Source: an uncultured virus (IMG/VR IMGVR_UViG_3300008108_000135)
Lineage: Duplodnaviria; Heunggongvirae; Uroviricota; Caudoviricetes
Reading direction: 5' to 3' (one strand)
IMG/VR virus record: IMGVR_UViG_3300008108_000135
DNA length: 20,000 nt
The notes under the pieces are model-generated. The model searched no databases, had not been told where the DNA came from, and was given only the letters and a program-made list of their open reading frames with translations. The position numbers and the translations under genes were made by a program. Below, piece by piece: positions 1-19,630 of this stretch (position 1 is its first letter; every line of letters begins with the position of its first letter).

Positions 1-1237
1 AATCTCTCTGAACCCATTTATCTGCAGGTACCCGATTACCATATGTGTGGTCGGGTACTTTTGTCCCTTCAGGTAAACGATTAGTAGCATTATCGGAACT
101 CGCATATCCACTGATGTTTGCTCCTAACTCAACTAAACGAAAATCCTCAATTTTTTTAGCTTTCATTAAATTATTAATACCATCAAATAATTGTTTATAC
201 GTTTCAGGTTTAATTGAAATCATATTATCCTTAAAAAAATTGTCATCCAATTTATATGAACCCAAGTCAAACCATTCTTCAGTAGAACCAGATTTAACGG
301 CTCCTGGTACAACACCCTCAACACTTGGCTCCATTCGTTTAATTACAATATCAGTACCATTAGGGTTATTTACCGATAATATTTTACCTTTTCTACCCGT
401 ACCTAAATCACCAAATATGTAATTACCCGCACCACCTGTAGAGCTTGTGAAGTTGTGTTGTCTTGCATTTGGGTTCTTTAATGATTCGTCGGTCCTGAAA
501 TCATCCGCAGTATAATCGGCGATAAAGTTAGCCATCTCTTTAAATTTATCCACATTATTGGCGTCAAAATGAACTCTACTTTTTTCTCTAGCGGTGTAAC
601 CAAATTTTTCTTGGGTAATCGGAATCATAATCCCATATATCGTTTCAGCTCTATTAGGACCTTCGGCACTTCCACCTCCGACAGTTTGATTAACAATCTT
701 CGCATTATACTCGGCTGGTATTTTTTCTAAATATTTATTAAATCTGTTTACCCACGTTGTACTACCTTTAGTAGAATCAAGTTTTTCAGGAGAACCTTTA
801 CCTAGTTGTGTTACCAATATGTGTGGAACTCCCCCAATCTCATAAAAATTATAAAGTATTGTATAAGGGTACATCTCTTGTTTTTCAGGTTCCTTTTTCA
901 TTTTACCATAAAAAGTCCCAATAACATATTGGTTCGCATCACCAGCACCTAAAACTTTTGTTTCATTAACTCTAACATTTTGTTCTTCAATACTCCCTTT
1001 AAATTGAGATAAAAGGTAATTTTTTAATGAAATGGCTCTATTAGATGCTAACCATTCATTGCCACCATCAATTCTGATATAACCTATAGATGGATTATAA
1101 TTTGCAATGCCTGCGGGTAATGCATCTAACTTAAACGTTAAGTTTGAGAACTTTTTAAAAGCGGGATTTGTTTGCTCTTGCAAACCCATCATATTTTTAA
1201 TACGTCTAATTTCTTCGTTTAATAAATTTTGTTTCAT
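1..1237 (-). CDS. Large protein, 3' end beyond the window, with N-terminal leader and OmpA-like peptidoglycan-binding motifs
   Basis: Absent from the ORF track because no stop lies in the window. Hand-translated from ATG at 1237, open to position 2 (412 codons): MKQNLLNEEIRRIKNMMGLQEQ...NEWLASNRAISLKNYLLSQFKG...FFKDNMISIKPETYKQLFDGINNLMK...NISGYASSD... Confidence 0.85.
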   Translation of the reverse strand, partial: MKQNLLNEEIRRIKNMMGLQEQTNPAFKKFSNLTFKLDALPAGIANYNPSIGYIRIDGGNEWLASNRAISLKNYLLSQFKGSIEEQNVRVNETKVLGAGDANQYVIGTFYGKMKKEPEKQEMYPYTILYNFYEIGGVPHILVTQLGKGSPEKLDSTKGSTTWVNRFNKYLEKIPAEYNAKIVNQTVGGGSAEGPNRAETIYGIMIPITQEKFGYTAREKSRVHFDANNVDKFKEMANFIADYTADDFRTDESLKNPNARQHNFTSSTGGAGNYIFGDLGTGRKGKILSVNNPNGTDIVIKRMEPSVEGVVPGAVKSGSTEEWFDLGSYKLDDNFFKDNMISIKPETYKQLFDGINNLMKAKKIEDFRLVELGANISGYASSDNATNRLPEGTKVPDHTYGNRVPADKWVQRD

Positions 1238-1240
1238 CGC

Positions 1241-1507
1241 TTAATTTAAATGTTTCATTATATCCGCCTTTTTAGCCAAACACATCTTTTTATCACCCAA
1301 AGAAGATGATTTTATCACCATTAGTTCTTTATCTGATAAAGCATTAATATCAATACTTAAAGGATTCCCACCTTCATATGAGTCTCTAATTTTTTTAAGG
1401 TCAAATAATGAACACTCCTCAAGAGGTAGTTGGTCTTCTTTTATTATAGAGTATTTTTCCAAAATGGATTTTTTCTCATCTTGAGATATTTCAACTATTC
1501 TTTTCAT
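1241..1507 (-). CDS. Hypothetical protein with leader MKRIVEISQDEKKSILEKY
   Basis: 88-aa ORF tightly packed with its neighbours; leader resembles that of 4081..4809 (LSDEEKNGILEQY). Confidence 0.8.
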   Translation of the reverse strand: MKRIVEISQDEKKSILEKYSIIKEDQLPLEECSLFDLKKIRDSYEGGNPLSIDINALSDKELMVIKSSSLGDKKMCLAKKADIMKHLN

Positions 1508-1607
1508 AATTCTGAATTAATTTTATGTTATTTTTTATAATATCCAATCTTTTTTTAAGATTTCGTCTATTTTTCTTACCTTTACCTTCTTTTCTAGCCT
1601 TTGCCAT
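1491..1607 (-). CDS. Small, highly basic peptide (38 aa)
   Basis: Start re-called at ATG 1607 (MAKARKEGKGKKNRRNLKKRL...), downstream of the ATATTTAT motif at 1627-1634. Confidence 0.6.
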   Translation of the reverse strand: MAKARKEGKGKKNRRNLKKRLDIIKNNIKLIQNYEKNS

Positions 1608-1635
1608 AACTATATATTTATTTCTAATAAATATC

Positions 1636-1929
1636 TCAATTATCAATAGTTCCCCAACCAATACTATATATTTTCCTAAAAATAAACTCATCGTAATTAG
1701 ATTGGAATACCATGTTGGACAAATCTCTTATATTATCTTCTATTTCGTTTTCTAATTCTAAATCAATTATTTCAATATTATATTTCCCCGTAACAATCAT
1801 AATACTATAATAAAACGCCTCATTATCAATATTATCTGAGTTAACTACGATTTTATCAATAAATGGATATTTCTTAATAATAATTGTATTAAGTATCTTA
1901 CTAAGTTGTGGGACTAAATCGTTTTTCAT
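1636..1929 (-). CDS. Hypothetical protein
   Basis: 97-aa ORF in the minus-strand run; N-terminus (IIIKKYPFIDKIVV) resembles 17424..17708 (IIFKKFPSLTSVEV). Confidence 0.8.
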   Translation of the reverse strand: MKNDLVPQLSKILNTIIIKKYPFIDKIVVNSDNIDNEAFYYSIMIVTGKYNIEIIDLELENEIEDNIRDLSNMVFQSNYDEFIFRKIYSIGWGTIDN

Positions 1930-1935
1930 ATAACA

Positions 1936-2502
1936 TTAAAATTCAGTCTCCAAGTCATACCCCATTTTATCGGTATATTTCTCTTGTAATACTTTATTAA
2001 CAATTGATATTACTTCATCCCTATAATCCTCAACAAGGTTAAAGAACTCATCGTCATAGTTTGGGTCATCGTCATATAAATCATCATAAATACTTCTACC
2101 ATTCTCAGTAATTGAGTCCAAGTCAATCTCCATTCTCATATGAACATATTGATTTGGAACGCTAACCTCAATTTCCCATAGTGTTACCAAAAAAGAAATA
2201 TTATTCCACTCAAATCGTAATTTTCTACCACTATCAGTTTCGTCTGTTAAATATAAACCAGGTCTTACCTCAAATAATGTAAAATCAGCTTTTAGGTATT
2301 TAAGGGGGTCAACACCATTTTTTTTGTTCCATTCTAATACCCAATGTTGTATTGTTGTGTATTGGTGAAAAAATAATCCAAATAATTTGATTTTAGTCAT
2401 ATCGTAATTGGCGTACCCCTGTTTATCCCAAAGTCTAAACAACATATTTTTTTGAGCTTCAATAACCGAATTTTGATTTTCTCTTATAATTACTTTCATC
2501 AT
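1936..2502 (-). CDS. Acidic hypothetical protein, class A leader (MKVIIRENQ)
   Basis: 188-aa ORF; ATGA overlap with upstream gene. Confidence 0.85.
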   Translation of the reverse strand: MMKVIIRENQNSVIEAQKNMLFRLWDKQGYANYDMTKIKLFGLFFHQYTTIQHWVLEWNKKNGVDPLKYLKADFTLFEVRPGLYLTDETDSGRKLRFEWNNISFLVTLWEIEVSVPNQYVHMRMEIDLDSITENGRSIYDDLYDDDPNYDDEFFNLVEDYRDEVISIVNKVLQEKYTDKMGYDLETEF

Positions 2503-2813
2503 TCAACAGGTATTACTGTAGGTTTACCAAATGGTTCTAAGACATGTGTAAAATACTCGTTAACAAATCTCAAATGGTCGGAATCAACTCGGTTACCATA
2601 AACATCAACAAAAATTAATACTCGGTGTGACATAACTTTAACCATTGTGACTTTGATTCTATCTATTACATTTATATATGATAAATACCAATTACCCGAA
2701 GACACTTCTTCATCTTTATATCTTTGTTTTAACACATTCCATTCATCATCAATTTTATTTTGATAAAATGAATGTAATTTATTCTCGGTATTTTCATTAA
2801 TTATAACTTTCAC
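2499..2813 (-). CDS. Hypothetical protein, class A leader (MKVIINENT); paralog of 3292..3678
   Basis: GTG start in a GTGA overlap; YQNKID...IDRIKVTMV aligns with YQSLID...VDSIKVTNV. Confidence 0.85.
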   Translation of the reverse strand: MKVIINENTENKLHSFYQNKIDDEWNVLKQRYKDEEVSSGNWYLSYINVIDRIKVTMVKVMSHRVLIFVDVYGNRVDSDHLRFVNEYFTHVLEPFGKPTVIPVE

Positions 2814-3292
2814 GATAAATAATTATTCACTAACATTTCAAATAGTTTATTTAAGTATTTAGTTTCCAATTTGTTAACACGAACATCATAATCATCAAAA
2901 TATTCGTCATACATCTGACCATCTTCATCAAATTCCCATACCGTAACATGGGCGAATAAGTTGTCATTATAATTCTCAATAAAATCAATATAAGATTCAA
3001 ATGTGTGGCCATCATCACCATCAAATTCGTCATACAAAATATCGGAATCTACTTCAGATAAATAGATTCTACCCCCGCCACCATAAACAGGATGTTGTTC
3101 ATCAAGTCCAATTATTTCTTTAATTAAATCTATCTTACTTTCTCTTGAATCAAAGTAATCGGGTAAAAGAGTTATGAAATTATCGTACCCTCCCATGAAC
3201 TTAATGGTATTTAATAATCCATTATTATCAATCATACCCATTAGTTTATGACTAATACCTTTTTTTTGTTCTTCTGTGACTACTATTCTCAT
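2810..3292 (-). CDS. Acidic hypothetical protein, class A leader (MRIVVTEEQ); paralog of 19643..>20000
   Basis: Start re-called at 3292 (TAATG overlap); GGYDNFITLL...KIDLIKEII segment shared with the last ORF in the window. Confidence 0.85.
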   Translation of the reverse strand: MRIVVTEEQKKGISHKLMGMIDNNGLLNTIKFMGGYDNFITLLPDYFDSRESKIDLIKEIIGLDEQHPVYGGGGRIYLSEVDSDILYDEFDGDDGHTFESYIDFIENYNDNLFAHVTVWEFDEDGQMYDEYFDDYDVRVNKLETKYLNKLFEMLVNNYLS

Positions 3293-3678
3293 TACCATTG
3301 GGGATTTTCATTTTTTAGGTCCACATTGTCTTCTATTATTTTAAGTTTGACACCCCTATCTCTTCCAAATGTAAGTCCCTTAACATAATACTCTAAATGA
3401 AACAATAGATTAGATGTGTCAAAAAATTTAATTGAGTCCAAAACTATATTAACATGAATGTTAACCACCATAATATTTGCACCAGGGTAAGTTTCATCGT
3501 AAATATCAACATTAGTAACCTTAATACTATCAACACTTTCAATATCATCTAAAACACGAGGGTCAACCCAATCAGGAACATTATCAGGACCATCAATACT
3601 AATCAATTCAGACACACACTTATCAATTAATGATTGATATAGATTAACCATTTTATTTTCGGTAATTAATACTTTCAT
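3292..3678 (-). CDS. Hypothetical protein, class A leader (MKVLITENK)
   Basis: 128-aa ORF; TAATG coupling on both sides. Confidence 0.85.
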   Translation of the reverse strand: MKVLITENKMVNLYQSLIDKCVSELISIDGPDNVPDWVDPRVLDDIESVDSIKVTNVDIYDETYPGANIMVVNIHVNIVLDSIKFFDTSNLLFHLEYYVKGLTFGRDRGVKLKIIEDNVDLKNENPQW

Positions 3679-4007: not shown

Positions 4008-4029
4008 ATTACATAAATATAATGAAAAT

Positions 4030-4057
4030 AAAAAACCCACCTGTTTGGGGGGTGGGT
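4030..4057 (-). terminator. Intrinsic terminator, CCCACC family
   Basis: ACCCACC...GGTGGGT stem followed by a U-tract on the minus strand, downstream of 4081..4809. Confidence 0.8.
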
Positions 4058-4080
4058 AAATTAAATCATTTTATGTTTTT

Positions 4081-4809
4081 TTAGGGTGTAATAAGTTTTA
4101 AACCATCGGTTGGTAATATAAGTCTATGACTACCACTTTGATTGGTGATACCATCAATTGTAGAGGTACCTCCATTAATCGTGATTGTTAATTTAGTACC
4201 GTCATTTACATATCCTAAAATTGTTTTTTTAAGTTCTTGATATTCGTTAGGATTTATTTTGTGAGTTATTACTTTATCAGTAGATGCCGTTCCTGTAGTC
4301 ACAGGAGTTGCGGGAACATTTTTATTATCCCCTGTTGTAGGGAATTGATGCTGTTCTCTTACTACCCCACCACTTTGGACTTTTTTAGGTAAAATCCATC
4401 CTAATTGTCCTAAACAAACGTTTTTGGGCATATTAACACCAATGTAATTTAAATGACCACAAAATTTTTCAGTTGATGGGACATCACTAAAGTCACCTTT
4501 AAATAAAGTTGCAATATCTTCACCTTTTGATTTTGCGATAGCATCAATTCTACCATACTCATTTTTGTCTTTAATAGAATATAGAGCCTTAAAAAACGCA
4601 TCTTCATTAGTTCCAGCACCTTTAACGGATTGGTATAACAAGTTATATTTTTGTTCGTCGTAATTTTCATTCAGTAACGGTTTAACGTTACCCAACTCAG
4701 ACTCCATTAATGATTTAAAACGTTCAGCATTAATTTTTATTTCCGCACCATATTGTTCAAGAATACCATTCTTTTCTTCATCACTTAAACCGTTTAATAT
4801 ATGTTTCAT
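4081..4809 (-). CDS. Annexin-repeat-containing protein with N-terminal leader
   Basis: LYQSVKGAGTNEDAFFKAL...IATLFKGDFS: GxGT (aa 64-67) followed by exactly 38 residues then D106, matching the annexin type II Ca2+ site pattern. Confidence 0.75.
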   Translation of the reverse strand: MKHILNGLSDEEKNGILEQYGAEIKINAERFKSLMESELGNVKPLLNENYDEQKYNLLYQSVKGAGTNEDAFFKALYSIKDKNEYGRIDAIAKSKGEDIATLFKGDFSDVPSTEKFCGHLNYIGVNMPKNVCLGQLGWILPKKVQSGGVVREQHQFPTTGDNKNVPATPVTTGTASTDKVITHKINPNEYQELKKTILGYVNDGTKLTITINGGTSTIDGITNQSGSHRLILPTDGLKLITP

Positions 4810-4841
4810 AATATTTTTTTTATATAAATATCATTTAAAAT

Positions 4842-4868
4842 AAAAAACCCACCTAAAAAGATGGGGTT
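4842..4868 (-). terminator. Intrinsic terminator, CCCACC family
   Basis: AACCCACCT-AAA-AGATGGGGTT imperfect stem plus U-tract. Confidence 0.7.
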
Positions 4869-4887
4869 AACATAATTTGTTTCGGTA

Positions 4888-5202
4888 TTACATACCTCTT
4901 CTTGTTCTTACTTTAAATGGTCTTTGTTTAACTTCTCTATATTTGTCAAACATTTTTTTACCGTGTTCTCCACGACCAAACCATTTAGTGTCTTCTCCGT
5001 GCTTAGATTCAAAATCTTCAAAGTCCTCAAACTTTTCTTCATCAAAGTCTTCATCACCCATATCATCAAAGCTAGCTCTTCTATCTGATTCATCGTACCA
5101 TTCCTCATCGTCAAATGAACCAAATTTTTTACCTTCATTGATAACTCGTTTAACGATTCTCATCAAATCAGATTCTGTTAATCTTATAACTCTTTTTGCC
5201 AT
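4888..5202 (-). CDS. Small protein with class B leader (MAKRVIRLTESDLMRIVKRVINE), acidic core and basic tail
   Basis: 104-aa ORF; ATATTTAT at 5219-5226. Confidence 0.9.
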   Translation of the reverse strand: MAKRVIRLTESDLMRIVKRVINEGKKFGSFDDEEWYDESDRRASFDDMGDEDFDEEKFEDFEDFESKHGEDTKWFGRGEHGKKMFDKYREVKQRPFKVRTRRGM

Positions 5203-5237
5203 GTTCTATTTTTTATTTATAAATATTATATAAAAAT

Positions 5238-5261
5238 AAAAAACCCACCTGATGAGGTGGG
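5238..5261 (-). terminator. Intrinsic terminator, CCCACC family
   Basis: Perfect CCCACCT-GATG-AGGTGGG stem plus U-tract. Confidence 0.85.
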
Positions 5262-5271
5262 AATTAATACA

Positions 5272-5496
5272 TCATAAGAAATATAACCATTTATCCTCAA
5301 AATGAGGGTAATACTTGGTAAAATTACGATGTCTGTCAATCATGTCATTCAAATCAACACATAAAATGAATGACCACAACAAAACACCAAGATAATCTAC
5401 CTCAATCACAGATTTAATGGTAAACTCCAAACTAATACCAAGTAAGATGAGACCCATAACCCCATACACAAAATATAAAATCAAACTATTTTTCAT
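5272..5496 (-). CDS. Small membrane protein with two hydrophobic segments
   Basis: 74-aa ORF without a leader, preceded by a Bacteroidota-type promoter. Confidence 0.7.
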   Translation of the reverse strand: MKNSLILYFVYGVMGLILLGISLEFTIKSVIEVDYLGVLLWSFILCVDLNDMIDRHRNFTKYYPHFEDKWLYFL

Positions 5497-5500
5497 AAGA

Positions 5501-5532
5501 CAAATATATACAAAATATTTTAACCAAACAAA
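5501..5532 (-). promoter_or_regulatory. Bacteroidota primary-sigma type promoter (-33 TTTG / -7 TAnnTTTG)
   Basis: Minus strand TTTG (5532-5529), 20-nt spacer, TATATTTG (5508-5501), 4 nt upstream of ATG 5496. Confidence 0.65.
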
Positions 5533-6023
5533 GATTTTAATATTTCTTTGTCTTCATCACTCAAAGCATTCCACCATTCATCATTATCAATATCAGGTAA
5601 ACCACCAAAATAAGAGTCATCAGTCATTCCTGATTCCTTACAAATTTTTGTTCCAACACTTTTTAGAATTATATATTCGTCACATTTATGTTTGTACGGA
5701 TTTCTAACATTATTAAACACCACACTATAATTTAAATCAATGTAGTTAGCCGCACTTGTTAGTATTTCTTCAAGATGAGACGGGACATCATACCTACCTT
5801 CATCCCACATTGTATCATCATAACTTAAATCTTTAATCAAAAAAGGTACCTTATCCCCAATAGCATTTACACGAATAACATAATCAGTGGTGTCTCTTGA
5901 TTTGAAGTGGTGTTCATTTACTTTATCAACCTCAAACTTCAAGTCAAGACCATATCTGTCTTTGATAATCTTACTACCAAGAGTATTAAGTATTTTTTCA
6001 ATTGCCGCGATTGGGTGTTCCAT
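5520..6023 (-). CDS. Hypothetical protein
   Basis: 167-aa ORF; ATATTTAT at 6029-6036. Confidence 0.85.
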   Translation of the reverse strand: MEHPIAAIEKILNTLGSKIIKDRYGLDLKFEVDKVNEHHFKSRDTTDYVIRVNAIGDKVPFLIKDLSYDDTMWDEGRYDVPSHLEEILTSAANYIDLNYSVVFNNVRNPYKHKCDEYIILKSVGTKICKESGMTDDSYFGGLPDIDNDEWWNALSDEDKEILKSLFG

Positions 6024-6045
6024 ATATGATAAATATATTATAAAT

Positions 6046-6071
6046 AAAAAACCCCACCTGTGAAGATGGGG
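6046..6071 (-). terminator. Intrinsic terminator, CCCACC family
   Basis: CCCCACCT-GTGA-AGATGGGG stem plus U-tract. Confidence 0.75.
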
Positions 6072-6099
6072 AGTAATAAAGTTTTAATGAATAAAATGC

Positions 6100-6312
6100 T
6101 TACTTCGGACTTTCTACCGTAAGTTGTGATAATGTTGCGGTAACCCCGCCAACCGCGATTAAATAACCACCCAAAGTAACAAGTGCCGCTGGTAATGCAA
6201 CAGGTGCCGCTACCAAAGCCGCTCCAAGAGCTCCCGCAGTTAACCCTACTTTCTGAACTTTTTTCCAAAAGTCAGGGGTCTTAGCATTCCATCTTTCAAA
6301 TAAATTTTTCAT
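6100..6312 (-). CDS. Putative holin-like small membrane protein
   Basis: 70 aa; basic N-terminus (RWNAKTPDFWKKVQK) followed by a long Ala/Gly/Val-rich hydrophobic hairpin; ATATTTAT at 6327-6334. Holin function is inferred only. Confidence 0.6.
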   Translation of the reverse strand: MKNLFERWNAKTPDFWKKVQKVGLTAGALGAALVAAPVALPAALVTLGGYLIAVGGVTATLSQLTVESPK

Positions 6313-6333
6313 AGTTGTTTTTATTAATAAATA

Positions 6334-6693
6334 TCAATAATCTTTAAAATGTCGTTCACCGTTAATATAGTAATAAACTCTACCCACATTAAGTCGGGTA
6401 TTATGAGTAAACCACTCAACAAATATATCAACCCAATTTGCACCAAAAGTTTGAGTTAAGGTATTTGACACCCTACCAAAAATCCATAATGTGTCCTCCT
6501 CATTATTATTCTTATTCAAAGACCAATATTCATAAGCACCATCCCCATCAATATCAAAGTCAATTGCCCCGAATTTATCCATCATATTACGATAATCAAT
6601 TGCCTTTTCAAAACCACCATCAGGGGTATATAGACTATCAAGATAAGATTTGACAGCTAAAGTATATTTGGATTCTGTTATTATTAATTTCAT
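6334..6693 (-). CDS. Hypothetical protein, class A leader (MKLIITESK); paralog of 10207..10560
   Basis: YLDSLYTPD...GAIDFDID...NWVDIFVEWFTHNTRLNV aligns with YLDLKFYPD...GDINFYVN...KWVPVVTKWFEQNTGLKV. Confidence 0.9.
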   Translation of the reverse strand: MKLIITESKYTLAVKSYLDSLYTPDGGFEKAIDYRNMMDKFGAIDFDIDGDGAYEYWSLNKNNNEEDTLWIFGRVSNTLTQTFGANWVDIFVEWFTHNTRLNVGRVYYYINGERHFKDY

Positions 6694-6704
6694 ACTAATA
6701 TATA

Positions 6705-7493
6705 TTATACAAAGGCGGATATAATATCATCTATTGATAATCCAATAGGGGGTAATCCCAAAAGTTCAATTACTTTTGATTCCGAATAAGTTCTATTCAT
6801 ATAATCACCAATAACTTTATTACCATCTCTATTTTGATATAGTAGGTTTTTTTCATTGGTTTTGATTAGATATAATGGTCCATACTTATTAATATAGACA
6901 TCCAAAATACGAGGATTTATTAGATTATCAAATTCTATTGGTAAATCATATCTATCATTAATTCTTTCAATCATACCTGTTAAGTCAACACCCAACCTGT
7001 CAATGATAAGATTTTTTAATTTTGATTCAATTAAAAAACTTTCTTTAATGTTCTTTTTCTTCTTAACATTATATTTGTTCGTTTTACTAGTATAAAAAGC
7101 ATTTTCATCATCGCTTTGGCCAGGGTCATGAATAAAGTCATAATCATACTGAACACAATCGCATTTAATACCAAGTTCATCGTATACATACTGAACCAAA
7201 ACCTTTGAGAATAACTTTGTTTTAAACAACGGAATAAATCTCTCCAACATATGAGAAAACTCACCATCCAAAGTTAAATCTCTTTTACATCCTTCGTTTG
7301 CCATGGTGGGAGGAAACCATATTGTCATTGGTGAAATATCGTCAAGGATATTACTTTTACCATAAATATATATTGATTGTATCGTTCTTTCATCATTTTC
7401 ATACATATTCTCGTATCTTAACTCACCCAAAATAGTTTTTAGGAGTTTATACGCCACATTCTTATATTGTTTTTTTGTAATTACGACTTTCAC
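6705..7493 (-). CDS. Two-part hypothetical protein, class A-like leader (MKVVITKKQ)
   Basis: GTG start 4 nt downstream of ATATTTAT (7498-7505); internal KKKKNIKESFLIESK junction. Confidence 0.85.
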   Translation of the reverse strand: MKVVITKKQYKNVAYKLLKTILGELRYENMYENDERTIQSIYIYGKSNILDDISPMTIWFPPTMANEGCKRDLTLDGEFSHMLERFIPLFKTKLFSKVLVQYVYDELGIKCDCVQYDYDFIHDPGQSDDENAFYTSKTNKYNVKKKKNIKESFLIESKLKNLIIDRLGVDLTGMIERINDRYDLPIEFDNLINPRILDVYINKYGPLYLIKTNEKNLLYQNRDGNKVIGDYMNRTYSESKVIELLGLPPIGLSIDDIISAFV

Positions 7494-7510
7494 AATAATA
7501 AATATCTCCG

Positions 7511-7861
7511 TTACCTAAACTTATCTTGAATTCTATTGACGAGATGTTTCCTTGCAACATTCATAAAATAATCTTGCACAATATCGGGGGGAACCATATT
7601 AAATGGTGTTATGTCGTGTGGACTAGGCCAAGATACATTAATTCCTTTCTCAGGGATATTACCTTTTTTATCAATATAAAAGACATATTCAATCCTTCTT
7701 TTACGGCCTTCAATATTAAACCAAAGATACACCACATAGTATTCTCTACGCATTGTATCTTCGTTCTTATATCCATACTCAGGTGTGACCTCAATATTAC
7801 CAATCTCTAGTAACCTGTCAATGATTTCTTTAGATGTTTTTTCTGTAATTAGGACTTTCAT
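7511..7861 (-). CDS. Hypothetical protein, class A leader (MKVLITEKT); paralog of 11961..12314 and of the N-domain of 8312..9664
   Basis: Start re-called at 7861 after GTATTTAT (7867-7874); shared IExxxEYG...YxxVxxWF...FxxxPxxxVxxYF pattern. Confidence 0.85.
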   Translation of the reverse strand: MKVLITEKTSKEIIDRLLEIGNIEVTPEYGYKNEDTMRREYYVVYLWFNIEGRKRRIEYVFYIDKKGNIPEKGINVSWPSPHDITPFNMVPPDIVQDYFMNVARKHLVNRIQDKFR

Positions 7862-7882
7862 ATATGATAAATACAATCTTTA

Positions 7883-8251
7883 TCAAAAATTACCTTCGTA
7901 TGTAAAATTGGTTGTTAGATTTTTTTCTTTCACGCTAACAACAAAATCAAGATGGGCCATAAACTGACATAACAAATCTCTAATTGATGATAGGTCCTCC
8001 TCAATGACATGTGTTAATTTTTCTTCACCGTCCACAATTTTATAGAATTTGTATCTTGGAGTAAAATCCATTGGACTGTAAAATATCTTCCATTCTTCGT
8101 TAATTTGGACATCATATATTACCCTATTATCTATTTTGGTAACTGAATTATAAAGAAGGTGGTTATAGTCGGACTTTGTAACGGTGCAGGTCAATCCCTT
8201 ATAAAGAGATTCAAACAACTTCTTAATCATTGGTATGTTTTTATCTTCCAT
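7883..8251 (-). CDS. Hypothetical protein without leader
   Basis: 122-aa ORF preceded by TATCTTTG. Confidence 0.8.
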   Translation of the reverse strand: MEDKNIPMIKKLFESLYKGLTCTVTKSDYNHLLYNSVTKIDNRVIYDVQINEEWKIFYSPMDFTPRYKFYKIVDGEEKLTHVIEEDLSSIRDLLCQFMAHLDFVVSVKEKNLTTNFTYEGNF

Positions 8252-8255
8252 AAAA

Positions 8256-8263
8256 CAAAGATA
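8256..8263 (-). promoter_or_regulatory. Bacteroidota-type -7 element TATCTTTG
   Basis: 4 nt upstream of ATG 8251; no clear -33 TTTG. Confidence 0.5.
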
Positions 8264-8280
8264 TAAAATTAATATGAAAT

Positions 8281-8304
8281 AAAAAACCCACCTGATGAGA
8301 TGGG
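8281..8304 (-). terminator. Intrinsic terminator, CCCACC family
   Basis: CCCACCT-GATG-AGATGGG stem plus U-tract, directly after the stop of 8312..9664. Confidence 0.8.
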
Positions 8305-8311
8305 ATATTTT

Positions 8312-9664
8312 TTATAATGCAATTTTAACCTGTGATTTTAAATAATCAGATTGTTGTACAATTTTTGTTAACAATTTTTTATACTCGGTTGGGTTTTTTG
8401 AAGATAGAATGTCAAAATGTTCTTTCACGAATTTTTCATCATAACCCAAAAGTTTTTTCATGTTAGGTGTTATATCTTTTTTAACACCTTTACCCCAATT
8501 AATTATATCGTCCAAAGTTTTAATGGTCACCTCTTTACCTAAACTTTTCATATATTTTTTTGTATTAGTACTAATACCATTTAATATTTTGGAGGTATTA
8601 GCAACAAGTTCTCTTGGGTGAAAATAATATGAGTTAGAAAAATATTCATCACTATATCTTTTAGTACCTGATTTATATTTTTTCATTAATTTTGAACTAA
8701 CGGATGATGGGTCTTTAATATGTGCCAATTCATGATAGAACAATTGGTCAATATCGGTAGGTGACATTTTCTTTACGTTATCTATACTAAACAATAAATA
8801 ATCATCCACCGCAAACCCGTAGCTACTACGGTAATTTTCACCCCACCATCTAACGGCATCATCAGATGTTATAAATAATACAGGGACATTTTTAACACCC
8901 GTCTTTGTTGTAACCTTTACTGAATGTCGTAATGGTTTAATATATTTCCTTAAAGTTAATGCTTTAGTTGCGGATGATGGTATATTTTTTACTTGTGAAG
9001 TTATTTTATGAATTTGAGATATTTCATCTTTAGTAAATTTAACCCCAAATTTAGAAACAAAATTCGCCATATTAGGTTTTGCGGTTTTTGAGGACTCTAA
9101 AGAACTCAAAAATTTCTTCCTATCAATTTTTTTACTTAAAAAACTTTGCACAAGTTTATCATATGATTCTTTACCAAATCTTTTAATATAAATCGGTTTT
9201 AACGTATTAACATAACTTAATATTGGTTTTGTTTCTTTAGTACCTCTAGAAAATAATTTTAAGAAATCCCCCAATACACCTTCGTTAATATTATCATCGG
9301 TAACCCACCATTTTGGGTTGCGACGCCTTTCCTCATACATATCCTCAAGAAATTGTCTTGTTTTCTTAATAAAATAACCATTGACAATATCTTTAGGGAG
9401 AAATGAAAACTCATCTATTGTCCGAACATCATCATAATAATCAAGTTTACCAATATTATCCACACCACGAACAACATACCAATAACGAAATGGCAATTTA
9501 AATTTACGACCATTAATGGTGAACCAAATATTAACACCATCATAAACTCTCCCGACAACATCATAAGTTTTTGCGCCATATTCAATTTCGTACTCAATGT
9601 TCTTCATCTTCAGGAGTTTCTCCATCGCACCACTTGTCTGTTCTTCTGAGATAATAATCTTCAT
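8312..9664 (-). CDS. Multidomain protein: class A leader, paralogous N-domain, basic region, zincin-like metallopeptidase domain
   Basis: Start re-called at 9664 (MKIIISEEQ), 4 nt after ATATTTAT (9669-9676); HELAH at 8720-8734 and a downstream Glu in YYFHPRELVAN. Confidence 0.8.
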   Translation of the reverse strand: MKIIISEEQTSGAMEKLLKMKNIEYEIEYGAKTYDVVGRVYDGVNIWFTINGRKFKLPFRYWYVVRGVDNIGKLDYYDDVRTIDEFSFLPKDIVNGYFIKKTRQFLEDMYEERRRNPKWWVTDDNINEGVLGDFLKLFSRGTKETKPILSYVNTLKPIYIKRFGKESYDKLVQSFLSKKIDRKKFLSSLESSKTAKPNMANFVSKFGVKFTKDEISQIHKITSQVKNIPSSATKALTLRKYIKPLRHSVKVTTKTGVKNVPVLFITSDDAVRWWGENYRSSYGFAVDDYLLFSIDNVKKMSPTDIDQLFYHELAHIKDPSSVSSKLMKKYKSGTKRYSDEYFSNSYYFHPRELVANTSKILNGISTNTKKYMKSLGKEVTIKTLDDIINWGKGVKKDITPNMKKLLGYDEKFVKEHFDILSSKNPTEYKKLLTKIVQQSDYLKSQVKIAL

Positions 9665-10560: not shown

Positions 10561-10581
10561 AATGATAAATATACTAAAAAT

Positions 10582-10610: not shown

Positions 10611-10632
10611 CAAAGAATATCTTATAAAACAT

Positions 10633-11184: not shown

Positions 11185-11492
11185 TTTTTACATTTATTTT
11201 TTTTAAATCTTCTTATTTTTGCGCCACAAAGATTAAATTCGTCAGACCTTTCAGCATCTTCTTGAGCGGAAAAAGCTCTATTTAATAAATTCCATTTGTC
11301 TTCCATATTATTTATTTTACCACATTCAGAATCTTTAATATTTTCAACCTCTTTATATAAAGATTTAATTTCACCCATAAATTCACCGTGATTCATTTTA
11401 GCATATTTATGATGAGGTTTTTCATTTTCACTAATCACTCGTTTAACGATTTTCATCAAATCTGATTCGGTTAATCTTATAACTTTTTTCAT
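11181..11492 (-). CDS. Small protein with class B leader (MKKVIRLTESDLMKIVKRVISE)
   Basis: 103-aa ORF; ATATTTAT at 11507-11514. Confidence 0.9.
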   Translation of the reverse strand: MKKVIRLTESDLMKIVKRVISENEKPHHKYAKMNHGEFMGEIKSLYKEVENIKDSECGKINNMEDKWNLLNRAFSAQEDAERSDEFNLCGAKIRRFKKNKCKK

Positions 11493-11542
11493 ATTAATTT
11501 TTATTTATAAATATTAGGTAAAAACAAAAAACGGGGGACTAA

Positions 11543-11959
11543 TTAACTACGAACAAACTTATCGGTAGAATAATCATCAATCACTTGTTTAATGGGATAA
11601 TCATATGTTGATTCAAACCAAACCTTTAATAAATCATTAAACTTAGAACCAAACATTTCCAACATAGATTTAAAAGAATATTTAGAATAAATTAATAGCG
11701 GTGTTTGGAAACCATCAACAGGTTCGTTGTATGGGGGGTTCTCAGCATACTGAAATACCCAATCGTCATCTTCCCACCAACTATTATTATCATCATTATC
11801 ATCAATATTATAAAAATTAAGCGGGGAGTAATCAATATAAGTATTCTTATTATAATCATAATAGTCATAATCCCTTTCATGTTCATATAAATTAGCAAAC
11901 TCTAACATCATACTGTTGAATAGGGACTGTAATTTATCTTCCGTAATTAATACTTTCAT
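11543..11959 (-). CDS. Acidic hypothetical protein, class A leader (MKVLITEDK)
   Basis: Start re-called at 11959; C-terminal MFG...LLKVWFESTY motif shared with several ORFs in the window. Confidence 0.85.
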   Translation of the reverse strand: MKVLITEDKLQSLFNSMMLEFANLYEHERDYDYYDYNKNTYIDYSPLNFYNIDDNDDNNSWWEDDDWVFQYAENPPYNEPVDGFQTPLLIYSKYSFKSMLEMFGSKFNDLLKVWFESTYDYPIKQVIDDYSTDKFVRS

Positions 11960-11960
11960 C

Positions 11961-12314
11961 TCAATCGTCAAAATTTATTATTGGTAATAACTTATCCAAA
12001 TAAACTCTTGCTCTCTCAATAAAGTAACCATTAACAAGTTCCCTGGGGATGGATTCAAACTCATCTGTAATGCTAGCAAGGTCACCATGACTTACCATCT
12101 TAATGATATAATCCTTTTTTGTTTTGAAGGTTACCAATCTTGAATGCTCGTAAATTTGATTGGGATATTTAAACCAAACATTAACAACATCGTATTGTCC
12201 ACCATCAGTGCTATAAGACCTAAGCCCATATTCATAATGAATCTCAATACCCCTCTTGTTAAGGATACCCTCAATCATTTTATCTCTATTTGATTCGTTA
12301 AGAATGATTTTCAT
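11961..12314 (-). CDS. Hypothetical protein, class A leader (MKIILNESN)
   Basis: 117-aa ORF; ATATTTAT at 12321-12328; paralog of 7511..7861. Confidence 0.9.
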   Translation of the reverse strand: MKIILNESNRDKMIEGILNKRGIEIHYEYGLRSYSTDGGQYDVVNVWFKYPNQIYEHSRLVTFKTKKDYIIKMVSHGDLASITDEFESIPRELVNGYFIERARVYLDKLLPIINFDD

Positions 12315-12337
12315 ATACAGATAAATATAATGAAAAT

Positions 12338-12369
12338 AAAAAACCCCCTACATAAAAGAGGGGGTTTTT
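12338..12369 (-). terminator. Intrinsic terminator, possibly bidirectional
   Basis: AAAAACCCCCT-ACATAAAAG-AGGGGGTTTTT. Confidence 0.8.
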
Positions 12370-17014: not shown

Positions 17015-17383
17015 ATGAATGATAAACTATTATATCTAATTAAATCTCAGGGTTGGCGTGTTGCCTCTAATATGGTTGGTGGTCCTGATGTTCTCTTTAA
17101 GTTATTGGATATAACCCCCACGAAGTTTCTGCATTCATTTAATGGTATGGGACAATCTTTTCCATCAGGTGATGTTACCTCATATGGTGAATGCTCTGGG
17201 TGTTGTTTATTTTTACATGATACAATGGATAATCTTTGTTTCATTAGTTATGAGGAAATATGGTCACTGTTTGAATATGGTTTTATGTTAACTTATAAGG
17301 AAACTCAAGAGATAACTAAACAATGGTTGTATGAATCTTATAACATAGATGTAGTTAGAACCAATTACTTTCGTAGGAACTAA
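17015..17383 (+). CDS. Hypothetical protein; paralog of 17736..18158 lacking the leader
   Basis: LIKSQGWRVASNMVGG...PTKFLHSF...ISYEEIWSLFE...TKQWLYESYNI. Confidence 0.9.
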   Translation: MNDKLLYLIKSQGWRVASNMVGGPDVLFKLLDITPTKFLHSFNGMGQSFPSGDVTSYGECSGCCLFLHDTMDNLCFISYEEIWSLFEYGFMLTYKETQEITKQWLYESYNIDVVRTNYFRRN

Positions 17384-17735: not shown

Positions 17736-18158
17736 ATGAAAGTTATTATAACCGAAAACCAAAAAGAAAAGATGTTAAGAAACCTAATCAAAAAGGATGG
17801 GGTTGTGTTCACATCTAATATGGTTGGTGGAATTGAGAATCTTTTTGATGTGTTAAATATTAAAAGTCCGATGGATTTCCTTCATTTATTTGATGACTTG
17901 GAACAAGTTCAATCAGAACAACGTGAAGATTTGATTTTATTCAGGTATAAACCAAATTATAACCTTATGATTTACGTTACAAAAAATGAAACTGTTTACA
18001 TAGATTATGATGAAATATGGTCATTTTTGGAAGACAAGTTTGGACTGAGTTATGAGGAAACACGAGCATTTACAAAGAAATGGTTGGATAATGTCTATAA
18101 TTTTAGGGGAATCACAACAAATGAATTTCAGGATGCTTACCACTCACGTATTGGGTAA
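17736..18158 (+). CDS. Hypothetical protein, class A leader (MKVIITENQ); C-terminus encoded by a repeat/spacer array
   Basis: 140-aa ORF; ATATTTAT at 17723-17730. Confidence 0.9.
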   Translation: MKVIITENQKEKMLRNLIKKDGVVFTSNMVGGIENLFDVLNIKSPMDFLHLFDDLEQVQSEQREDLILFRYKPNYNLMIYVTKNETVYIDYDEIWSFLEDKFGLSYEETRAFTKKWLDNVYNFRGITTNEFQDAYHSRIG

Positions 18159-18238
18159 GGTATAGAATTTAAGGGGGGTCACAACAATAAACACCTTGGG
18201 CTATGTCTCCAGACCAATTGTCTGAGGTATACAATTTA
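18084..18238 (+). repeat. Repeat-spacer array: 37-bp degenerate repeats separated by 30-bp unique spacers (period 67)
   Basis: R1 18084-18120 TTGGATAATGTCTATAATTTTAGGGGAATCACAACAA; R2 18151-18187 TTGGGTAAGGTATAGAATTTAAGGGGGGTCACAACAA (30/37 identical to R1); truncated R3 18218-18238 TTGTCTGAGGTATACAATTTA. Confidence 0.85.
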
Positions 18239-18240
18239 TT

Positions 18241-18396
18241 TTAATCCTCATCAGGTTCATCTGACATATAATCCACAGAATAACAATTAAAACATTGGGA
18301 TGGTTCTAATTTGGGGTTTTCAGGTCTAACTAATATCTCATATGTACGACCACAATCCTTACATATTTTATTTGTCAATATAAATTCACTATCCAT
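18241..18396 (-). CDS. Small zinc-ribbon protein (51 aa)
   Basis: Below the ORF-track size range; hand-translated MDSEFILTNKICKDCGRTYEILVRPENPKLEPSQCFNCYSVDYMSDEPDED (CxxC-19-CxxC); overlaps the upstream gene by 8 nt. Confidence 0.75.
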   Translation of the reverse strand: MDSEFILTNKICKDCGRTYEILVRPENPKLEPSQCFNCYSVDYMSDEPDED

Positions 18397-18712
18397 TGTA
18401 TAAATGCTCAATATACTTCTCCGTGATTCGTGGTGAAAAGTAATTCATTAGTGAATCATAAATATAATTATAATCAAAGTCAACTTTACCCCAATCAGAT
18501 AACGCTCCGTGAAATATATCCATCAATGTTGATACTATCTTTCGTTTAAACTTTTCTAATGATAAATCACGATTCCTAACTGATTTTATCTCAAAATTAA
18601 TCAACATGTTAAAATCATGCTCAATCTCTCTAAGACTAATTCTCCTTTTAAGATATAATGGTAAACCCGTCTCTTCTCTTAATATTCTTCTTATGGATTC
18701 TTGTAGGTTCAT
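18389..18712 (-). CDS. Hypothetical protein, class C leader (MNLQESIRRILREE)
   Basis: 107-aa ORF. Confidence 0.9.
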   Translation of the reverse strand: MNLQESIRRILREETGLPLYLKRRISLREIEHDFNMLINFEIKSVRNRDLSLEKFKRKIVSTLMDIFHGALSDWGKVDFDYNYIYDSLMNYFSPRITEKYIEHLYNG

Positions 18713-18713
18713 A

Positions 18714-19145
18714 TTAACAATCTCCTATACCGTAAAATACACAATCAACAATTTGACTGTCATCTTTATCAAAGATATAAACATAGGAATCTCTATTATT
18801 TATTCTATCGTAACATAATCTATGATGGCCATCTATTATGTATAATTTATTTTTATATTTGAACAAACTAATATCAGATTTATTGTATCTTTCATCGTCC
18901 ATTCTTTTTACGTATTCTATATCAAACTTTTCTTGAACTGAATATACTGTAATGTCTTTTGGTAATAATTCTTTTTCTAATTGAGAAACTTCTATCAATT
19001 CATCAATTTCATTAACCACCATATCCCACAGATTTGAAAACCTATCTAATTTACTAAAATGTTCTGGGACATACATAATATTACAGTCACCCCTATTATT
19101 TAGTTCTTCTCTTAATATTCTTCTTATGGATTCTTGTAGGTTCAT
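18714..19145 (-). CDS. ParB/Srx-like domain protein, class C leader
   Basis: DISLFKYKNKLYIIDGHHRL matches the ParB/Srx DGHHR motif. Confidence 0.75.
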   Translation of the reverse strand: MNLQESIRRILREELNNRGDCNIMYVPEHFSKLDRFSNLWDMVVNEIDELIEVSQLEKELLPKDITVYSVQEKFDIEYVKRMDDERYNKSDISLFKYKNKLYIIDGHHRLCYDRINNRDSYVYIFDKDDSQIVDCVFYGIGDC

Positions 19146-19630
19146 TTATCTCTTAATATTCGTTTAACTATTGGGTTGGAGAAGAATCTCTCAATATCTC
19201 TTTTAACTTTACCTGTATTACAAAATCTATTGTTAAAGAACATCTCAGGTATTTCATCTGATTCCTCCGTCCACATGTTTAATTCATATTCTTCAGAAAC
19301 CATTGGTAATTGTCTATCATACCAATCATCCATTCTCTTTTCCGCCTTATCAAATGTGGTAAACCCATTTGAATCTAACAACATGTCATCAATCTTAATA
19401 TATACATGAAGTAAGTAATCCTGCTCAACCTCATCCGTGTCCTTATCAACCTCGTTTGCTAGTAATAGATAGTAATTCACCTTTCTGTTGGGGAAACGCT
19501 TTCTAATCTTACCTATGATGTCGTATGCAAAGTAATGACAATATCCATATTGATAATCATATTTCCCCTCGTTCCATTTGGACTCAAGTGTTTCCCTTAA
19601 TATTCTTCTTATGGATTCTTGTAGGTTCAT
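19142..19630 (-). CDS. Putative papain-like/transglutaminase-fold protein, class C leader
   Basis: GYCHYFA ... LHVYIK ... LLDSNG gives a Cys-His-Asp order; ATATTTAT at 19636-19643. Confidence 0.6.
   Translation of the reverse strand: MNLQESIRRILRETLESKWNEGKYDYQYGYCHYFAYDIIGKIRKRFPNRKVNYYLLLANEVDKDTDEVEQDYLLHVYIKIDDMLLDSNGFTTFDKAEKRMDDWYDRQLPMVSEEYELNMWTEESDEIPEMFFNNRFCNTGKVKRDIERFFSNPIVKRILRDK

What the first reader, a model, noticed from the sequence alone, without database searches (positions are those of the whole stretch)
1237..19630. Library of 23+ diverse proteins sharing N-terminal Glu-motif leaders: candidate capsid-targeted cargo system
Seen: class A M[KR]xx[ILV][TSNR][EK] in 13 genes (starts 2502/2499, 2813, 3292, 3678, 4007, 6693, 7493, 7861, 9664, 10560, 11959, 12314, 17736); class B (K)KxxRLTES[DE]LxxIV[KR]RVIxE in 4 genes (5202, 10153, 11184, 11492); class C MNLQESIRRILRE in 3 genes; related leaders at 1237, 1507 and 4809. 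Apart from a few paralog groups, similarity stops after an [ILV]-x-E motif and the bodies differ. Established: phage T4 internal proteins IPI-III carry a short N-terminal capsid-targeting sequence that prohead protease gp21 removes by cutting after Glu, and IPI* inhibits the GmrSD restriction enzyme after injection. Inference: these leaders may route a large, variable set of proteins into the head for co-injection, on a much larger scale than in T4.
Basis: partly seen in the sequence, partly recalled or inferred. Interest (0 to 1): 0.85.

Follow-up and report, generated by a model that had tools for sequence, protein, structure and literature searches.

The report
Swappable capsid-loading tags on phage proteins
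Twenty-three mostly unrelated genes in this piece of an uncultured freshwater jumbo phage start with one of five short, interchangeable peptide tags that resemble the label phage T4 uses to load proteins into its head and then cut off, so the phage probably packs a very large, fast-changing protein kit, but no experiment has shown packaging or cutting.

Summary
Confirmed: all 23 leaders are where stated, far above chance. The window comes from a Bacteroidota jumbo myophage related to bS21-encoding lake phages. Two near-complete relatives carry 39 of 301 and 61 of 374 leader genes. Five classes (A-E) contain [IL]-x-E, T4 gp21's cut motif. They swap on the same body at that Glu. A and B are conserved as protein. 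Relatives encode a gp21 homologue and capsid propeptides with 4-5 such sites. Class D matches the scaffold's C-terminal helix, and the two vary together in a second lineage that includes a cultured phage. An ECF sigma factor has a leader only in its close clade. Best reading (0.72): T4-CTS-like head loading with protease release, on a far larger scale. Packaging, cleavage and injection are unmeasured, and this genome's own head genes are not held. This scan noted the same kind of system, scaffold mimicry included, on many other genomes. My paper searches found no description of it.

The parts
1..1237 (-). Class D leader gene (>=412 aa, runs off the window); leader aa 1-21 has [IL]xE at 8 and 21, and its helix matches the scaffold C-terminal helix of relatives
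1241..1507 (-). Class E leader gene, 88 aa
1936..2499 (-). Class A leader gene, 187 aa; stop/start-coupled to 2813
2499..2813 (-). Class A leader gene (GTG start), 104 aa; TATTTAT box at 2815-2822
2810..3292 (-). Class A leader gene with V-T-E, 160 aa; body occurs as the C-terminal module of a class C protein in G006
3292..3678 (-). Class A leader gene, 128 aa
3678..4007 (-). Class A leader gene, 109 aa; TATTTAT box at 4013-4020 within a hairpin repeat (4010-4055)
4081..4809 (-). Weak class E leader gene, 242 aa; box at 4824-4831, terminator-like hairpin 4848-4865
4888..5202 (-). Class B leader gene, 104 aa, sites at aa 10 and 23; box 5219-5226, hairpin 5244-5261
6334..6693 (-). Class A leader gene, 119 aa; paralogue of 10560
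6705..7493 (-). Class A leader gene (GTG; Lys at the first Glu position), 262 aa, two modules; the second, after internal [IL]xE sites near aa 150-156, is a stand-alone class A gene in G002; box 7498-7505
7511..7861 (-). Class A leader gene, 116 aa; paralogue of 12314 and of the first module of 9664
8312..9664 (-). Class A leader gene, 450 aa: leader + ~110-aa module + INE128 junction + HExxH-containing module. Six of 81 homologues carry that module directly behind the leader; 63 of 81 begin with class A; box 9669-9676
9842..10153 (-). Class B leader gene, 103 aa; box 10170-10177
10207..10560 (-). Class A leader gene, 117 aa; box 10565-10572, hairpin 10584-10611
10633..11184 (-). Class B leader gene, 183 aa; coupled to 11492
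11181..11492 (-). Class B leader gene, 103 aa; box 11507-11514
11543..11959 (-). Class A leader gene, 138 aa; follows 12314 directly
11961..12314 (-). Class A leader gene, 117 aa; box 12321-12328, hairpin 12344-12362
17015..17383 (+). Leaderless paralogue of the 17736 body (38% identity, E 1e-19)
17736..18158 (+). Class A leader gene, 140 aa; the same body carries class C leaders in relatives, in register after the final Glu; box 17723-17730
18389..18712 (-). Class C leader gene, 107 aa; first 41 nt identical to those of 19145
18714..19145 (-). Class C leader gene, 143 aa; a body 98% identical is the second module of a fused class C protein in L018
19142..19630 (-). Class C leader gene, 162 aa; box 19636-19643; homologue in G003 59% identical; YunG-like lead only
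4010..12363 (-). Seven copies of an intergenic repeat (terminator-like hairpin; most copies also carry the TATTTAT box) separating gene cassettes
   Evidence: (family D1)

Best explanation
The leaders are capsid-targeting propeptides of a T4-type head-assembly system in a Bacteroidota-infecting jumbo myophage. Steps: (1) Cassettes, often a terminator hairpin, a TATTTAT promoter box and a leader-coding start, express the genes with the structural genes (sequence shown; 'late' timing inferred). (2) The leader, an amphipathic helix usually flanked by two [IL]-x-E sites (a short strand comes first in A, B and E), docks the protein into the prohead core. Class D does so by copying the scaffold's C-terminal helix, and B and C more weakly resemble a scaffold N-terminal helix (resemblance shown; binding inferred). 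(3) The gp21-like protease cuts after the Glu, frees the cargo and separates fused modules at internal sites (inferred from T4). (4) Some mature cargo (muralytic enzymes, ADP-ribosyltransferase-like proteins, an ECF sigma factor, many small orphans) is ejected with the DNA for take-over or counter-defence (inferred; about 0.55 on its own). (5) Recombination among the repeated promoter-leader DNA, most recently class C, recruits and swaps cargo (swaps shown; mechanism inferred).
For: T4 gp21 cuts after L/I-X-E (PMC9026906 passages), and Alt loses 6 residues at ITE-6 (PMC5694885 passages); minimal class A has the same form. The Glu is the most conserved leader residue, 89-100% per class. Two or more sites lie in aa 1-30 in 60 of 64 B, 55 of 83 C, 29 of 31 D, 22 of 27 E and 28 of 69 A families, against 0-9 per class in aa 41-70. 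All 5 related records searched encode a Peptidase_S77 protease, a gp21 homologue (E 2e-13). Capsid proteins are gp23 homologues with 5 sites in aa 1-62 in 61 of 64 and none in aa 63-124 in 64 of 64. One body occurs with different leaders: A/C, A/B, B/D and C/D swaps, and homology restarts after the Glu. Classes A and B have third-codon identity 0.50 and 0.53 against second-position 0.78 and 0.83. TATTTAT precedes 86 of 100 leader genes with their own 5' region against 196 of 546 others (p 3e-21). Recognised portal, terminase, baseplate, hub, tube, sheath and adaptor proteins of G003 have no leader. The class B pattern has 1 match in GTDB, on a phage-like contig, against at least 128 viral stretches. 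ECF sigma: leader in 31 of 37 close homologues and 0 of 83 distant ones. A class D profile ranks the G006 scaffold tail 7th of 158,202 windows, and one scaffold ends in a near-exact class D. In a second lineage, scaffold tails and leaders both switch to an LAGI form.
Against: No virion proteomics, cleavage assay or expression timing exists for this lineage. The window's own head genes are not held (G001 is 17% complete); protease and scaffold come from relatives, and the scaffold is identified by position only (no PHROG or PDB hit). The capsid proteins compared are close relatives (about 63-100% identical), so the 64 are not independent. [IL]xE is common: 89 of 189 leaderless TATTTAT genes also have a site in aa 1-30. 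Scaffold site density (0.022) is no higher than in the baseplate hub (0.024) or adaptor (0.021). Two window leaders lack a canonical first site (3292, 7493). The residue after the site is often Glu or Asn. Bodies are mildly acidic (median -0.03 per residue), whereas T4 IPs are basic. A leaderless paralogue exists in the window (17015). The lineage covariation is one contrast between two lineages, with 3 leaders on the second side, and no such leader was seen in the 50 kb of Mel-JY01 examined. The B/C likeness to the scaffold is weak (median rank 53-100 of 158,202). 131 of 150 cargo representatives have no Pfam hit.
Confidence: 0.72

Rival explanations
1. Core filler only: the leaders do bring proteins into the prohead, but as extra scaffold or core mass for a large head; the bodies are degraded or stay inside and are not delivered to the host.
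For: Class D copies the scaffold tail. Bodies are acidic like core proteins. Leader-like helices also occur at C-termini and between modules (38 internal and 3 C-terminal copies in 150 class B representatives). T4 IPIII affects head assembly.
Against: Bodies include intact enzymes and a sigma factor that gained the leader. They turn over fast: 18 of 100 shared between G003 and G006 against 244 of 575 other genes (p 2e-6), unlike structural filler. Bodies are not rich in cut sites.
Confidence: 0.12
2. The leader is a docking or processing tag for something other than the head: an inhibitory propeptide or degradation/timing tag read by a phage protease in the cytoplasm, or a handle for another phage structure.
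For: No binding partner is shown. Residues after the first Glu are conserved (Gln in 74% of class A). Some leaders lack a canonical site. Eight cargo families are muralytic or peptidoglycan-binding and could serve lysis.
Against: It does not explain the match to, and covariation with, the scaffold tail, the shared motif in the capsid propeptide, or the absence from tail and baseplate proteins.
Confidence: 0.1
3. The repeat is a DNA-level expression or mobility cassette (terminator + promoter + first codons, PeSL-like); the peptide is a by-product or aids translation initiation on near-leaderless messages.
For: Seven hairpin repeats, most with the box, in the window. Class C is nearly identical as DNA (third-position identity 0.83; 41 identical nt). 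TATTTAT often ends 4-6 nt before the ATG. PeSL shuffling is known in T4-type phages (PMC2839356 passages).
Against: A and B use synonymous codons freely while residues are fixed. Five different peptides converge on [IL]xE. Leaders persist in coupled downstream genes with no promoter (71 such genes, 8 with the box) and inside fused proteins. The class C sample was fetched with an exact DNA pattern, which inflates its identity.
Confidence: 0.06

Closest known systems
Phage T4 capsid targeting sequence (CTS) of IPI-III and the Alt propeptide, removed by prohead protease gp21 (PMC9026906, PMC5694885, PMC9958956, PMC12373910; passages read)
   Same: Short N-terminal leader on otherwise unrelated, variable proteins; ends in L/I-X-E; gp21-like protease and gp23-like capsid protein in the lineage; class A resembles Alt's 6-residue ITE propeptide; ADP-ribosyltransferase-like cargo among relatives.
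   Different: About 40-60 genes per genome (13-16%) against 4 such proteins in T4 (at least 10 Ips reported across relatives); five interchangeable classes, usually with two cut sites around a helix; leaders also inside fused proteins; one class copies the scaffold tail, whereas T4's CTS is reported not to be shared with core proteins; bodies acidic and up to about 650 aa; no experimental proof.
Propeptides of SPN3US / phiKZ head and ejection proteins (A-X-E, S/A/G-X-E; PMC10052503, PMC5694885; passages read)
   Same: Jumbo-phage head cargo with N-terminal propeptides cut after Glu by a gp21-like protease, some 20-24 aa long.
   Different: There 8 N-terminally cut substrates with mostly long (111-254 aa) propeptides; here dozens of short, repeated, swappable tags with an [IL]-x-E motif.
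P22 scaffolding protein C-terminal coat-binding helix-turn-helix (bioRxiv 10.1101/2022.12.13.520362; passages read)
   Same: A basic helix at the scaffold C-terminus is the known coat-docking element, the precedent for what class D would mimic.
   Different: Different phage group; no homology tested; binding of this lineage's scaffold tail is unknown.
PeSL promoter-stem-loop cassettes of RB49/phi1 (PMC2839356; passages read)
   Same: Repeated terminator-promoter units in front of orphan genes in a hypervariable region, able to drive modular shuffling.
   Different: PeSLs are early sigma70-type and purely intergenic; here the box is TATTTAT and the shared unit extends into a selected peptide.
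bS21-encoding freshwater Bacteroidetes phages (PMC9723584; parts 1-2 of 6 read, plus a term search)
   Same: Relative G003 has bS21 on the opposite strand among terminase, portal, protease and capsid genes; similar size; low G+C; freshwater.
   Different: The paper's main text has no occurrence of 'motif', 'promoter', 'internal' or 'cleav'; bS21 itself is not seen in the held part of this genome.

Membership tests
T4-type CTS internal-protein system | Short shared N-terminal leader on otherwise unrelated proteins | tested here: met
   23 of 37 window ORFs in 20 body groups; 118 class B bodies fall into 90 families
T4-type CTS internal-protein system | Leader ends in the gp21 motif L/I-X-E | tested here: met
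   At least one site in aa 1-30 in 269 of 274 leader families; window exceptions 3292 (V-T-E) and 7493 (first site Lys)
T4-type CTS internal-protein system | gp21-like protease and gp23-like capsid protein with a matching propeptide in the same genome | tested here: inconclusive
   Met in relatives that share the leaders; the head module of this genome is not held
T4-type CTS internal-protein system | Sequence homology to the T4 IPII/IPIII CTS itself | not tested
   No T4 IP sequence was fetched; the class B leader found no match among annotated phages (tblastn), a weak test for 28 aa
T4-type CTS internal-protein system | Protein is packaged in the head and cleaved after the Glu | not testable with these tools
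   Needs virion mass spectrometry; no proteome of a relative was found
T4-type CTS internal-protein system | Leader alone is sufficient to package a foreign protein; cargo is injected | not testable with these tools
   Natural grafting onto an ECF sigma is suggestive only
T4-type CTS internal-protein system | Mature cargo small and basic, as T4 IPs | tested here: not met
   Median net charge -0.03 per residue, median length 157 aa; IPs are described as basic, 8-20 kDa. This is typical of T4 rather than strictly defining
PeSL-type mobile regulatory cassette | Repeated intergenic stem-loop plus promoter in front of orphan genes | tested here: met
PeSL-type mobile regulatory cassette | Promoter is early, sigma70-like (-35/-10) | tested here: not met
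   sigma70-type sites not enriched (136 against 125 +/- 8); the box is TATTTAT
bS21-encoding Bacteroidetes jumbo phages | bS21 on the reverse strand among TerL, portal, protease and capsid genes | tested here: inconclusive
   Met in relative G003 and 43 bS21-like ORFs in 80 capsid loci; region not held for this genome
bS21-encoding Bacteroidetes jumbo phages | Bacteroidota host signal | tested here: met
   Same-genome record G001 encodes a protein with a type IX secretion C-terminal domain; TAnnTTTG boxes (label recalled) lie just upstream of leaderless genes 5496, 8251 and 16622

The most novel reading that the evidence does not exclude
These phages run an open-ended cargo-display system. Any gene that recombines behind a promoter-leader cassette gains a clip-off helix that imitates the scaffold's own docking helices, is built into the prohead, is released by the head protease (also from polyproteins) and is injected. 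About one gene in seven would then be a pre-made effector, including a sigma factor that starts early transcription, drawn from a pan-genomic library of thousands of families (8,487 clusters at 50% identity carry class B alone; fragments inflate this).
Probability: 0.4. Interest if true: 0.85.

Novelty: new variant of a known kind. Interest (0 to 1): 0.62.

Why it matters
If true, a sequence tag marks dozens of orphan genes per genome as virion-delivered proteins. That gives a searchable library of candidate counter-defence and take-over factors in abundant freshwater phages; in T4 each of the three IPs blocks a different GmrSD enzyme (PMC12373910 passages). The match between class D and the scaffold tail gives a concrete, testable answer to what a capsid-targeting sequence binds, which is unresolved even for T4's core (PMC9958956 passage). 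A cultured Flavobacterium phage shows an analogous tag, so the test is practical. Short swappable loading tags would also be useful for protein delivery in Bacteroidota.

Tried and rejected
Window proteins against Pfam, PHROGs and NCBIfam: none of the 23 leader proteins reached a curated cut-off and none had a PHROG function. No DNA match among annotated phages and no match for the class B peptide. No tRNAs. Complex prediction of the G003 capsid protein with the class D leader gave no answer (score 0.00, controls not folded); it is not evidence either way. AlphaFold of 9664 was confident only from about aa 150; Foldseek had no match at E<=0.001 and the best VIA Z was 5.9, with zinc peptidases only among weak rows, so the peptidase call rests on the invariant HExxH. 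ESM Atlas: leader B gave only short unnamed clusters below 0.9; the 19630 body gave a YunG-like lead at 0.92-0.94. The scaffold has no PDB sequence match. RNA data: one metatranscriptome holds 0.06 of the words, as contigs only; no read profile was obtained, so start sites and timing stay open. A ribbon-helix-helix reading of class B (recalled fold) was dropped by eye: no alternating strand pattern and no second helix. A host-derived signal was rejected: the single GTDB match lies on a 3.3-kb contig whose other gene begins like a gene of the G003 structural region. Membrane segments are not significantly depleted in cargo (3 of 144 against 49 of 899, p 0.10). My note that 16622 is a paralogue of 17736 was not borne out at E<=1e-3. 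G002 looks chimeric (two proteases; window-type leaders only at 120-240 kb), so its 44 of 368 is not a per-genome figure. Near-duplicate loci L008, L028 and L031 were dropped before the family counts. Nine paper searches found no description of these leaders; subscription papers are not covered and no supplements were read (those of PMC9723584 could bear on expression).


Full report
OBSERVATION. All 23 leaders are at the stated starts. Leader patterns match 3 of 2,674 internal Met positions and 6 of 10,430 shuffled N-termini of related phage proteins, and reversed proteins score at most 8.4 bits on leader HMMs. Among 37 curated window ORFs, 23 carry a leader and 14 do not (the HMMs were partly trained on them). 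The 23 fall into 20 body groups. None reaches a curated Pfam or NCBIfam cut-off or has a PHROG function.

SOURCE. No whole genome is held. Record G001 (48.8 kb, 17% complete) is 100% identical over window 1-13017 and extends 35 kb further. It adds 6 leader genes of 58 and encodes a protein with a type IX secretion C-terminal domain, DnaK and thymidylate synthase, which points to a Bacteroidota host. An exact 29-nt class C pattern found 32 viral stretches on contigs up to 304 kb. All 5 records searched encode a Peptidase_S77 protease. I tiled G002, G003 and G006 and called genes with my own script. In G003, PHROGs (94 of about 300 proteins given) identifies the major capsid protein, protease, portal, terminase, baseplate, tube, sheath and adaptor, and Pfam identifies bS21 on the opposite strand between them. 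This is the layout of the bS21 phages of PMC9723584 (parts 1-2 of 6 read), whose main text does not mention motifs, promoters or cleavage. The head genes of the window's own genome are not held, so everything on protease and scaffold comes from relatives.

ANATOMY. HMMs give five classes: A, M-K-I-I-I-T-E-S-Q; B, K-K-I-I-R-L-T-E-S-D-L-x-R-I-V-K-R-V-I-x-E; C, M-N-L-Q-E-S-I-R-R-I-L-R-E; D, L-Q-E-E-I-x-R-I-K-x-M-M-G; E, F-I-I-T-E-x-E-K-x-R-I-L. The Glu is 89-100% conserved. Most B-E leaders have two [IL]-x-E sites around a short helix (60 of 64, 55 of 83, 29 of 31, 22 of 27 families; A 28 of 69), against 0-9 per class in residues 41-70. Counts at 12 bits are 39 of 301 genes in G003, 61 of 374 in G006 and 44 of 368 in G002; G002 looks chimeric. 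A class B profile hits 8,487 clusters at 50% identity (short fragments inflate this). A strict class B DNA pattern gives at least 128 viral stretches (DNA was fetched for 80) and 1 match in GTDB, on a phage-like contig. All 135 matches read lie within 7 codons of a start, and 118 distinct bodies fall into 90 families.

MODULARITY. Of 240 body families with a leader gene, 35 are mixed by my strict patterns; most of these mixes are missed weak leaders, but A/C, A/B, B/D and C/D swaps are clear. The 17736 body has class A here, class C in six relatives' genes and no leader in 17015, and it is in register after the last Glu. Protein 9664 is leader + module + INE128 + an HExxH module; 63 of 81 homologues start with class A and six carry that module directly behind the leader. 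Class B also occurs inside proteins (38 internal, 3 C-terminal copies in the top 150, which are ranked towards two-copy proteins). An ECF sigma factor carries A or B in 31 of 37 close homologues and 0 of 83 distant ones. Leader genes turn over fast: 18 of 100 are shared between G003 and G006, against 244 of 575 other genes.

PROTEIN OR DNA? For A and B, third codon positions are much less alike (0.50, 0.53) than second positions (0.78, 0.83), and synonymous codons vary freely. Class C is nearly fixed as DNA (0.83), which suggests recent copying, although its sample was fetched by an exact DNA pattern. The window has seven hairpin repeats, most with a TATTTAT box; WTATTTAT occurs 33 times against 17 +/- 4 expected. 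The box precedes 86 of 100 leader genes with their own 5' region against 196 of 546 others, also precedes scaffold, terminase and baseplate genes, and mostly ends 4-6 or 11-16 nt before the start codon. I read it as the phage late promoter; this is inference. Leaderless genes 5496, 8251 and 16622 have TAnnTTTG instead, the Bacteroidota host element (recalled). The cassette explains how leaders spread; it does not explain the peptide's conservation.

LINK TO THE HEAD. T4 gp21 cuts after L/I-X-E, and the 10-19-residue IP propeptides target the core (PMC9026906 passages); Alt is cut at ITE-6 and LTE-619 (PMC5694885 passages). The G003 protease aligns with T4 gp21 (E 2e-13) and the capsid protein with gp23. 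In 64 distinct capsid proteins, residues 1-62 hold 5 [IL]-x-E sites in 61 and 4 in 3, and residues 63-124 hold none; they are close relatives, so not independent. Scaffold site density is not above that of some tail proteins. Recognised portal, terminase, tail and baseplate proteins have no leader (that PHROG list was chosen as leaderless, and G003's leader proteins were scanned only with Pfam, in part). A class D profile ranks the G006 scaffold tail 7th of 158,202 windows; the median of 64 scaffolds is matched by only 14 windows; most other top windows lie at protein ends. All 60 distinct scaffolds end in R-[IMV]-x-x-[LMIV]-M and one in a near-exact class D. In the lineage of the cultured Flavobacterium phage immuto_2-6A (50 of 160 kb read), three scaffolds (immuto, Mel-JY01, left part of G002) end in an R-x-x-K-L-A-G-I form, and three genes begin with R-x-x-x-L-A-G-I; 0 of 47 window-type D leaders and 0 of 60 scaffolds have it. 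This is one contrast between two lineages. B and C resemble a helix near the scaffold N-terminus more weakly. In P22 the scaffold's C-terminal helices bind the coat protein (bioRxiv 2022.12.13.520362 passages). The scaffold is named by position only.

CARGO. Of 227 family representatives the 150 longest were scanned with Pfam; 19 hit at E<=1e-4: eight muralytic or peptidoglycan-binding proteins, two ART-PolyVal-like (below cut-off), PPK2, a sigma factor, thioredoxin, PAP2, a kinase-like protein, DUF2237 twice, DUF6576 and one weak LRR. ADP-ribosyltransferases, zincin peptidases and lysozymes are typical of proteins thought to be injected with phage DNA (PMC5512222 passages). Against a simple T4 parallel, bodies are mildly acidic and the residue after the site is often Glu or Asn.

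MECHANISM AND ODDS. Best: head loading by leader, release by the prohead protease and delivery of at least part of the cargo (0.72; injection alone about 0.55). Rivals: core filler without delivery (0.12), a tag for another process (0.10), a DNA cassette by-product (0.06). Shown: the leaders, their selection, swapping, promoter link, motif match and scaffold resemblance. Inferred: timing, binding, packaging, cutting and injection.

COMPARISON AND NOVELTY. It works like T4's CTS system, and the review already suggests the CTS as a way for T4-like phages to load various proteins; T-even phages have at least 10 Ips (PMC12373910 passages). Membership cannot be claimed, because packaging and cleavage are untested and homology to T4's tag was not tested. 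What differs is the scale, the five interchangeable classes, the internal copies and the scaffold mimicry. Nine searches of the paper library and term searches in PMC7824862, PMC12619734 and PMC13282480 (passages only) found no description. Subscription journals and supplements were not seen. Earlier notes of this scan describe the same kind on many other genomes (699 notes hold the search words), and the scaffold link too (seen after my own test). They are unchecked AI notes and are not counted as support; one is marked as partly fallen. Verdict: real feature, new variant of a known kind, interest 0.62.

Noticed in passing
L079:10640-11203 (G002) and homologues P0232-P0265: A phage ECF sigma factor carries a class A or B leader in 31 of 37 close homologues; if packaged, it could start early transcription.
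   Followed up: partly
window upstream of 4007, 7493, 9664, 10560, 17736, 19630; relatives: TATTTAT and TAnnTTTG boxes very often end only 4-6 nt before the start codon, implying leaderless or near-leaderless mRNAs.
   Followed up: partly
window 12860-13200 and 14430-15390: Long stretches with little coding, G/C homopolymer tracts and a break in GC skew; similar DNA occurs in relatives. Possibly an origin or genome end.
   Followed up: no
window 15390-16507: Metallophosphoesterase (LpxH-like hits below cut-off) plus family 2 glycosyltransferase, up to 91% and 75% identical in relatives, without leaders.
   Followed up: no
window 12368-12823: Endonuclease-like gene (PHROG 3322/1035) behind a TATTTAT box, without a leader.
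   Followed up: no
window 4081-4809: After the weak class E leader comes a second motif (RF-x-x-L-M-E-S-x-L-G-x-V-K-P) that opens other genes in G002, a possible sixth class.
   Followed up: no
window 18714-19145 and 19142-19630: By eye, a ParB-like IIDGHHR motif in 19145 and a Cys-His-Asp arrangement in 19630 (labels recalled); the Atlas gives a YunG-like lead for 19630.
   Followed up: partly
window 6100-6312: 70-aa hydrophobic, holin-like ORF behind a TATTTAT box, no leader; not tested.
   Followed up: no
L038:6616-7809 (G001, same genome): Phage protein with a type IX secretion C-terminal sorting domain.
   Followed up: no
G002 (L071-L085): Record appears to join two different phages: two proteases and two head modules, with different leader families left and right.
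   Followed up: partly
L296:25626-26867 (immuto26A_204): Annotated 'DNA polymerase phi-like' but by position and termini it is the scaffold; several neighbouring ORFs share other N-terminal tag families ending in [IL]xE.
   Followed up: partly
L086 (Mel-JY01, PP395634.1): Deposited as a Microcystis phage, yet it encodes bS21 and a head module like that of a Flavobacterium phage; the host label may deserve a check.
   Followed up: no
L040:13668-14378 (G003) and 40 homologues: Conserved 237-aa gene beside the portal with the highest [IL]xE density measured (0.041), a candidate degraded core protein like T4 gp67/gp68.
   Followed up: partly
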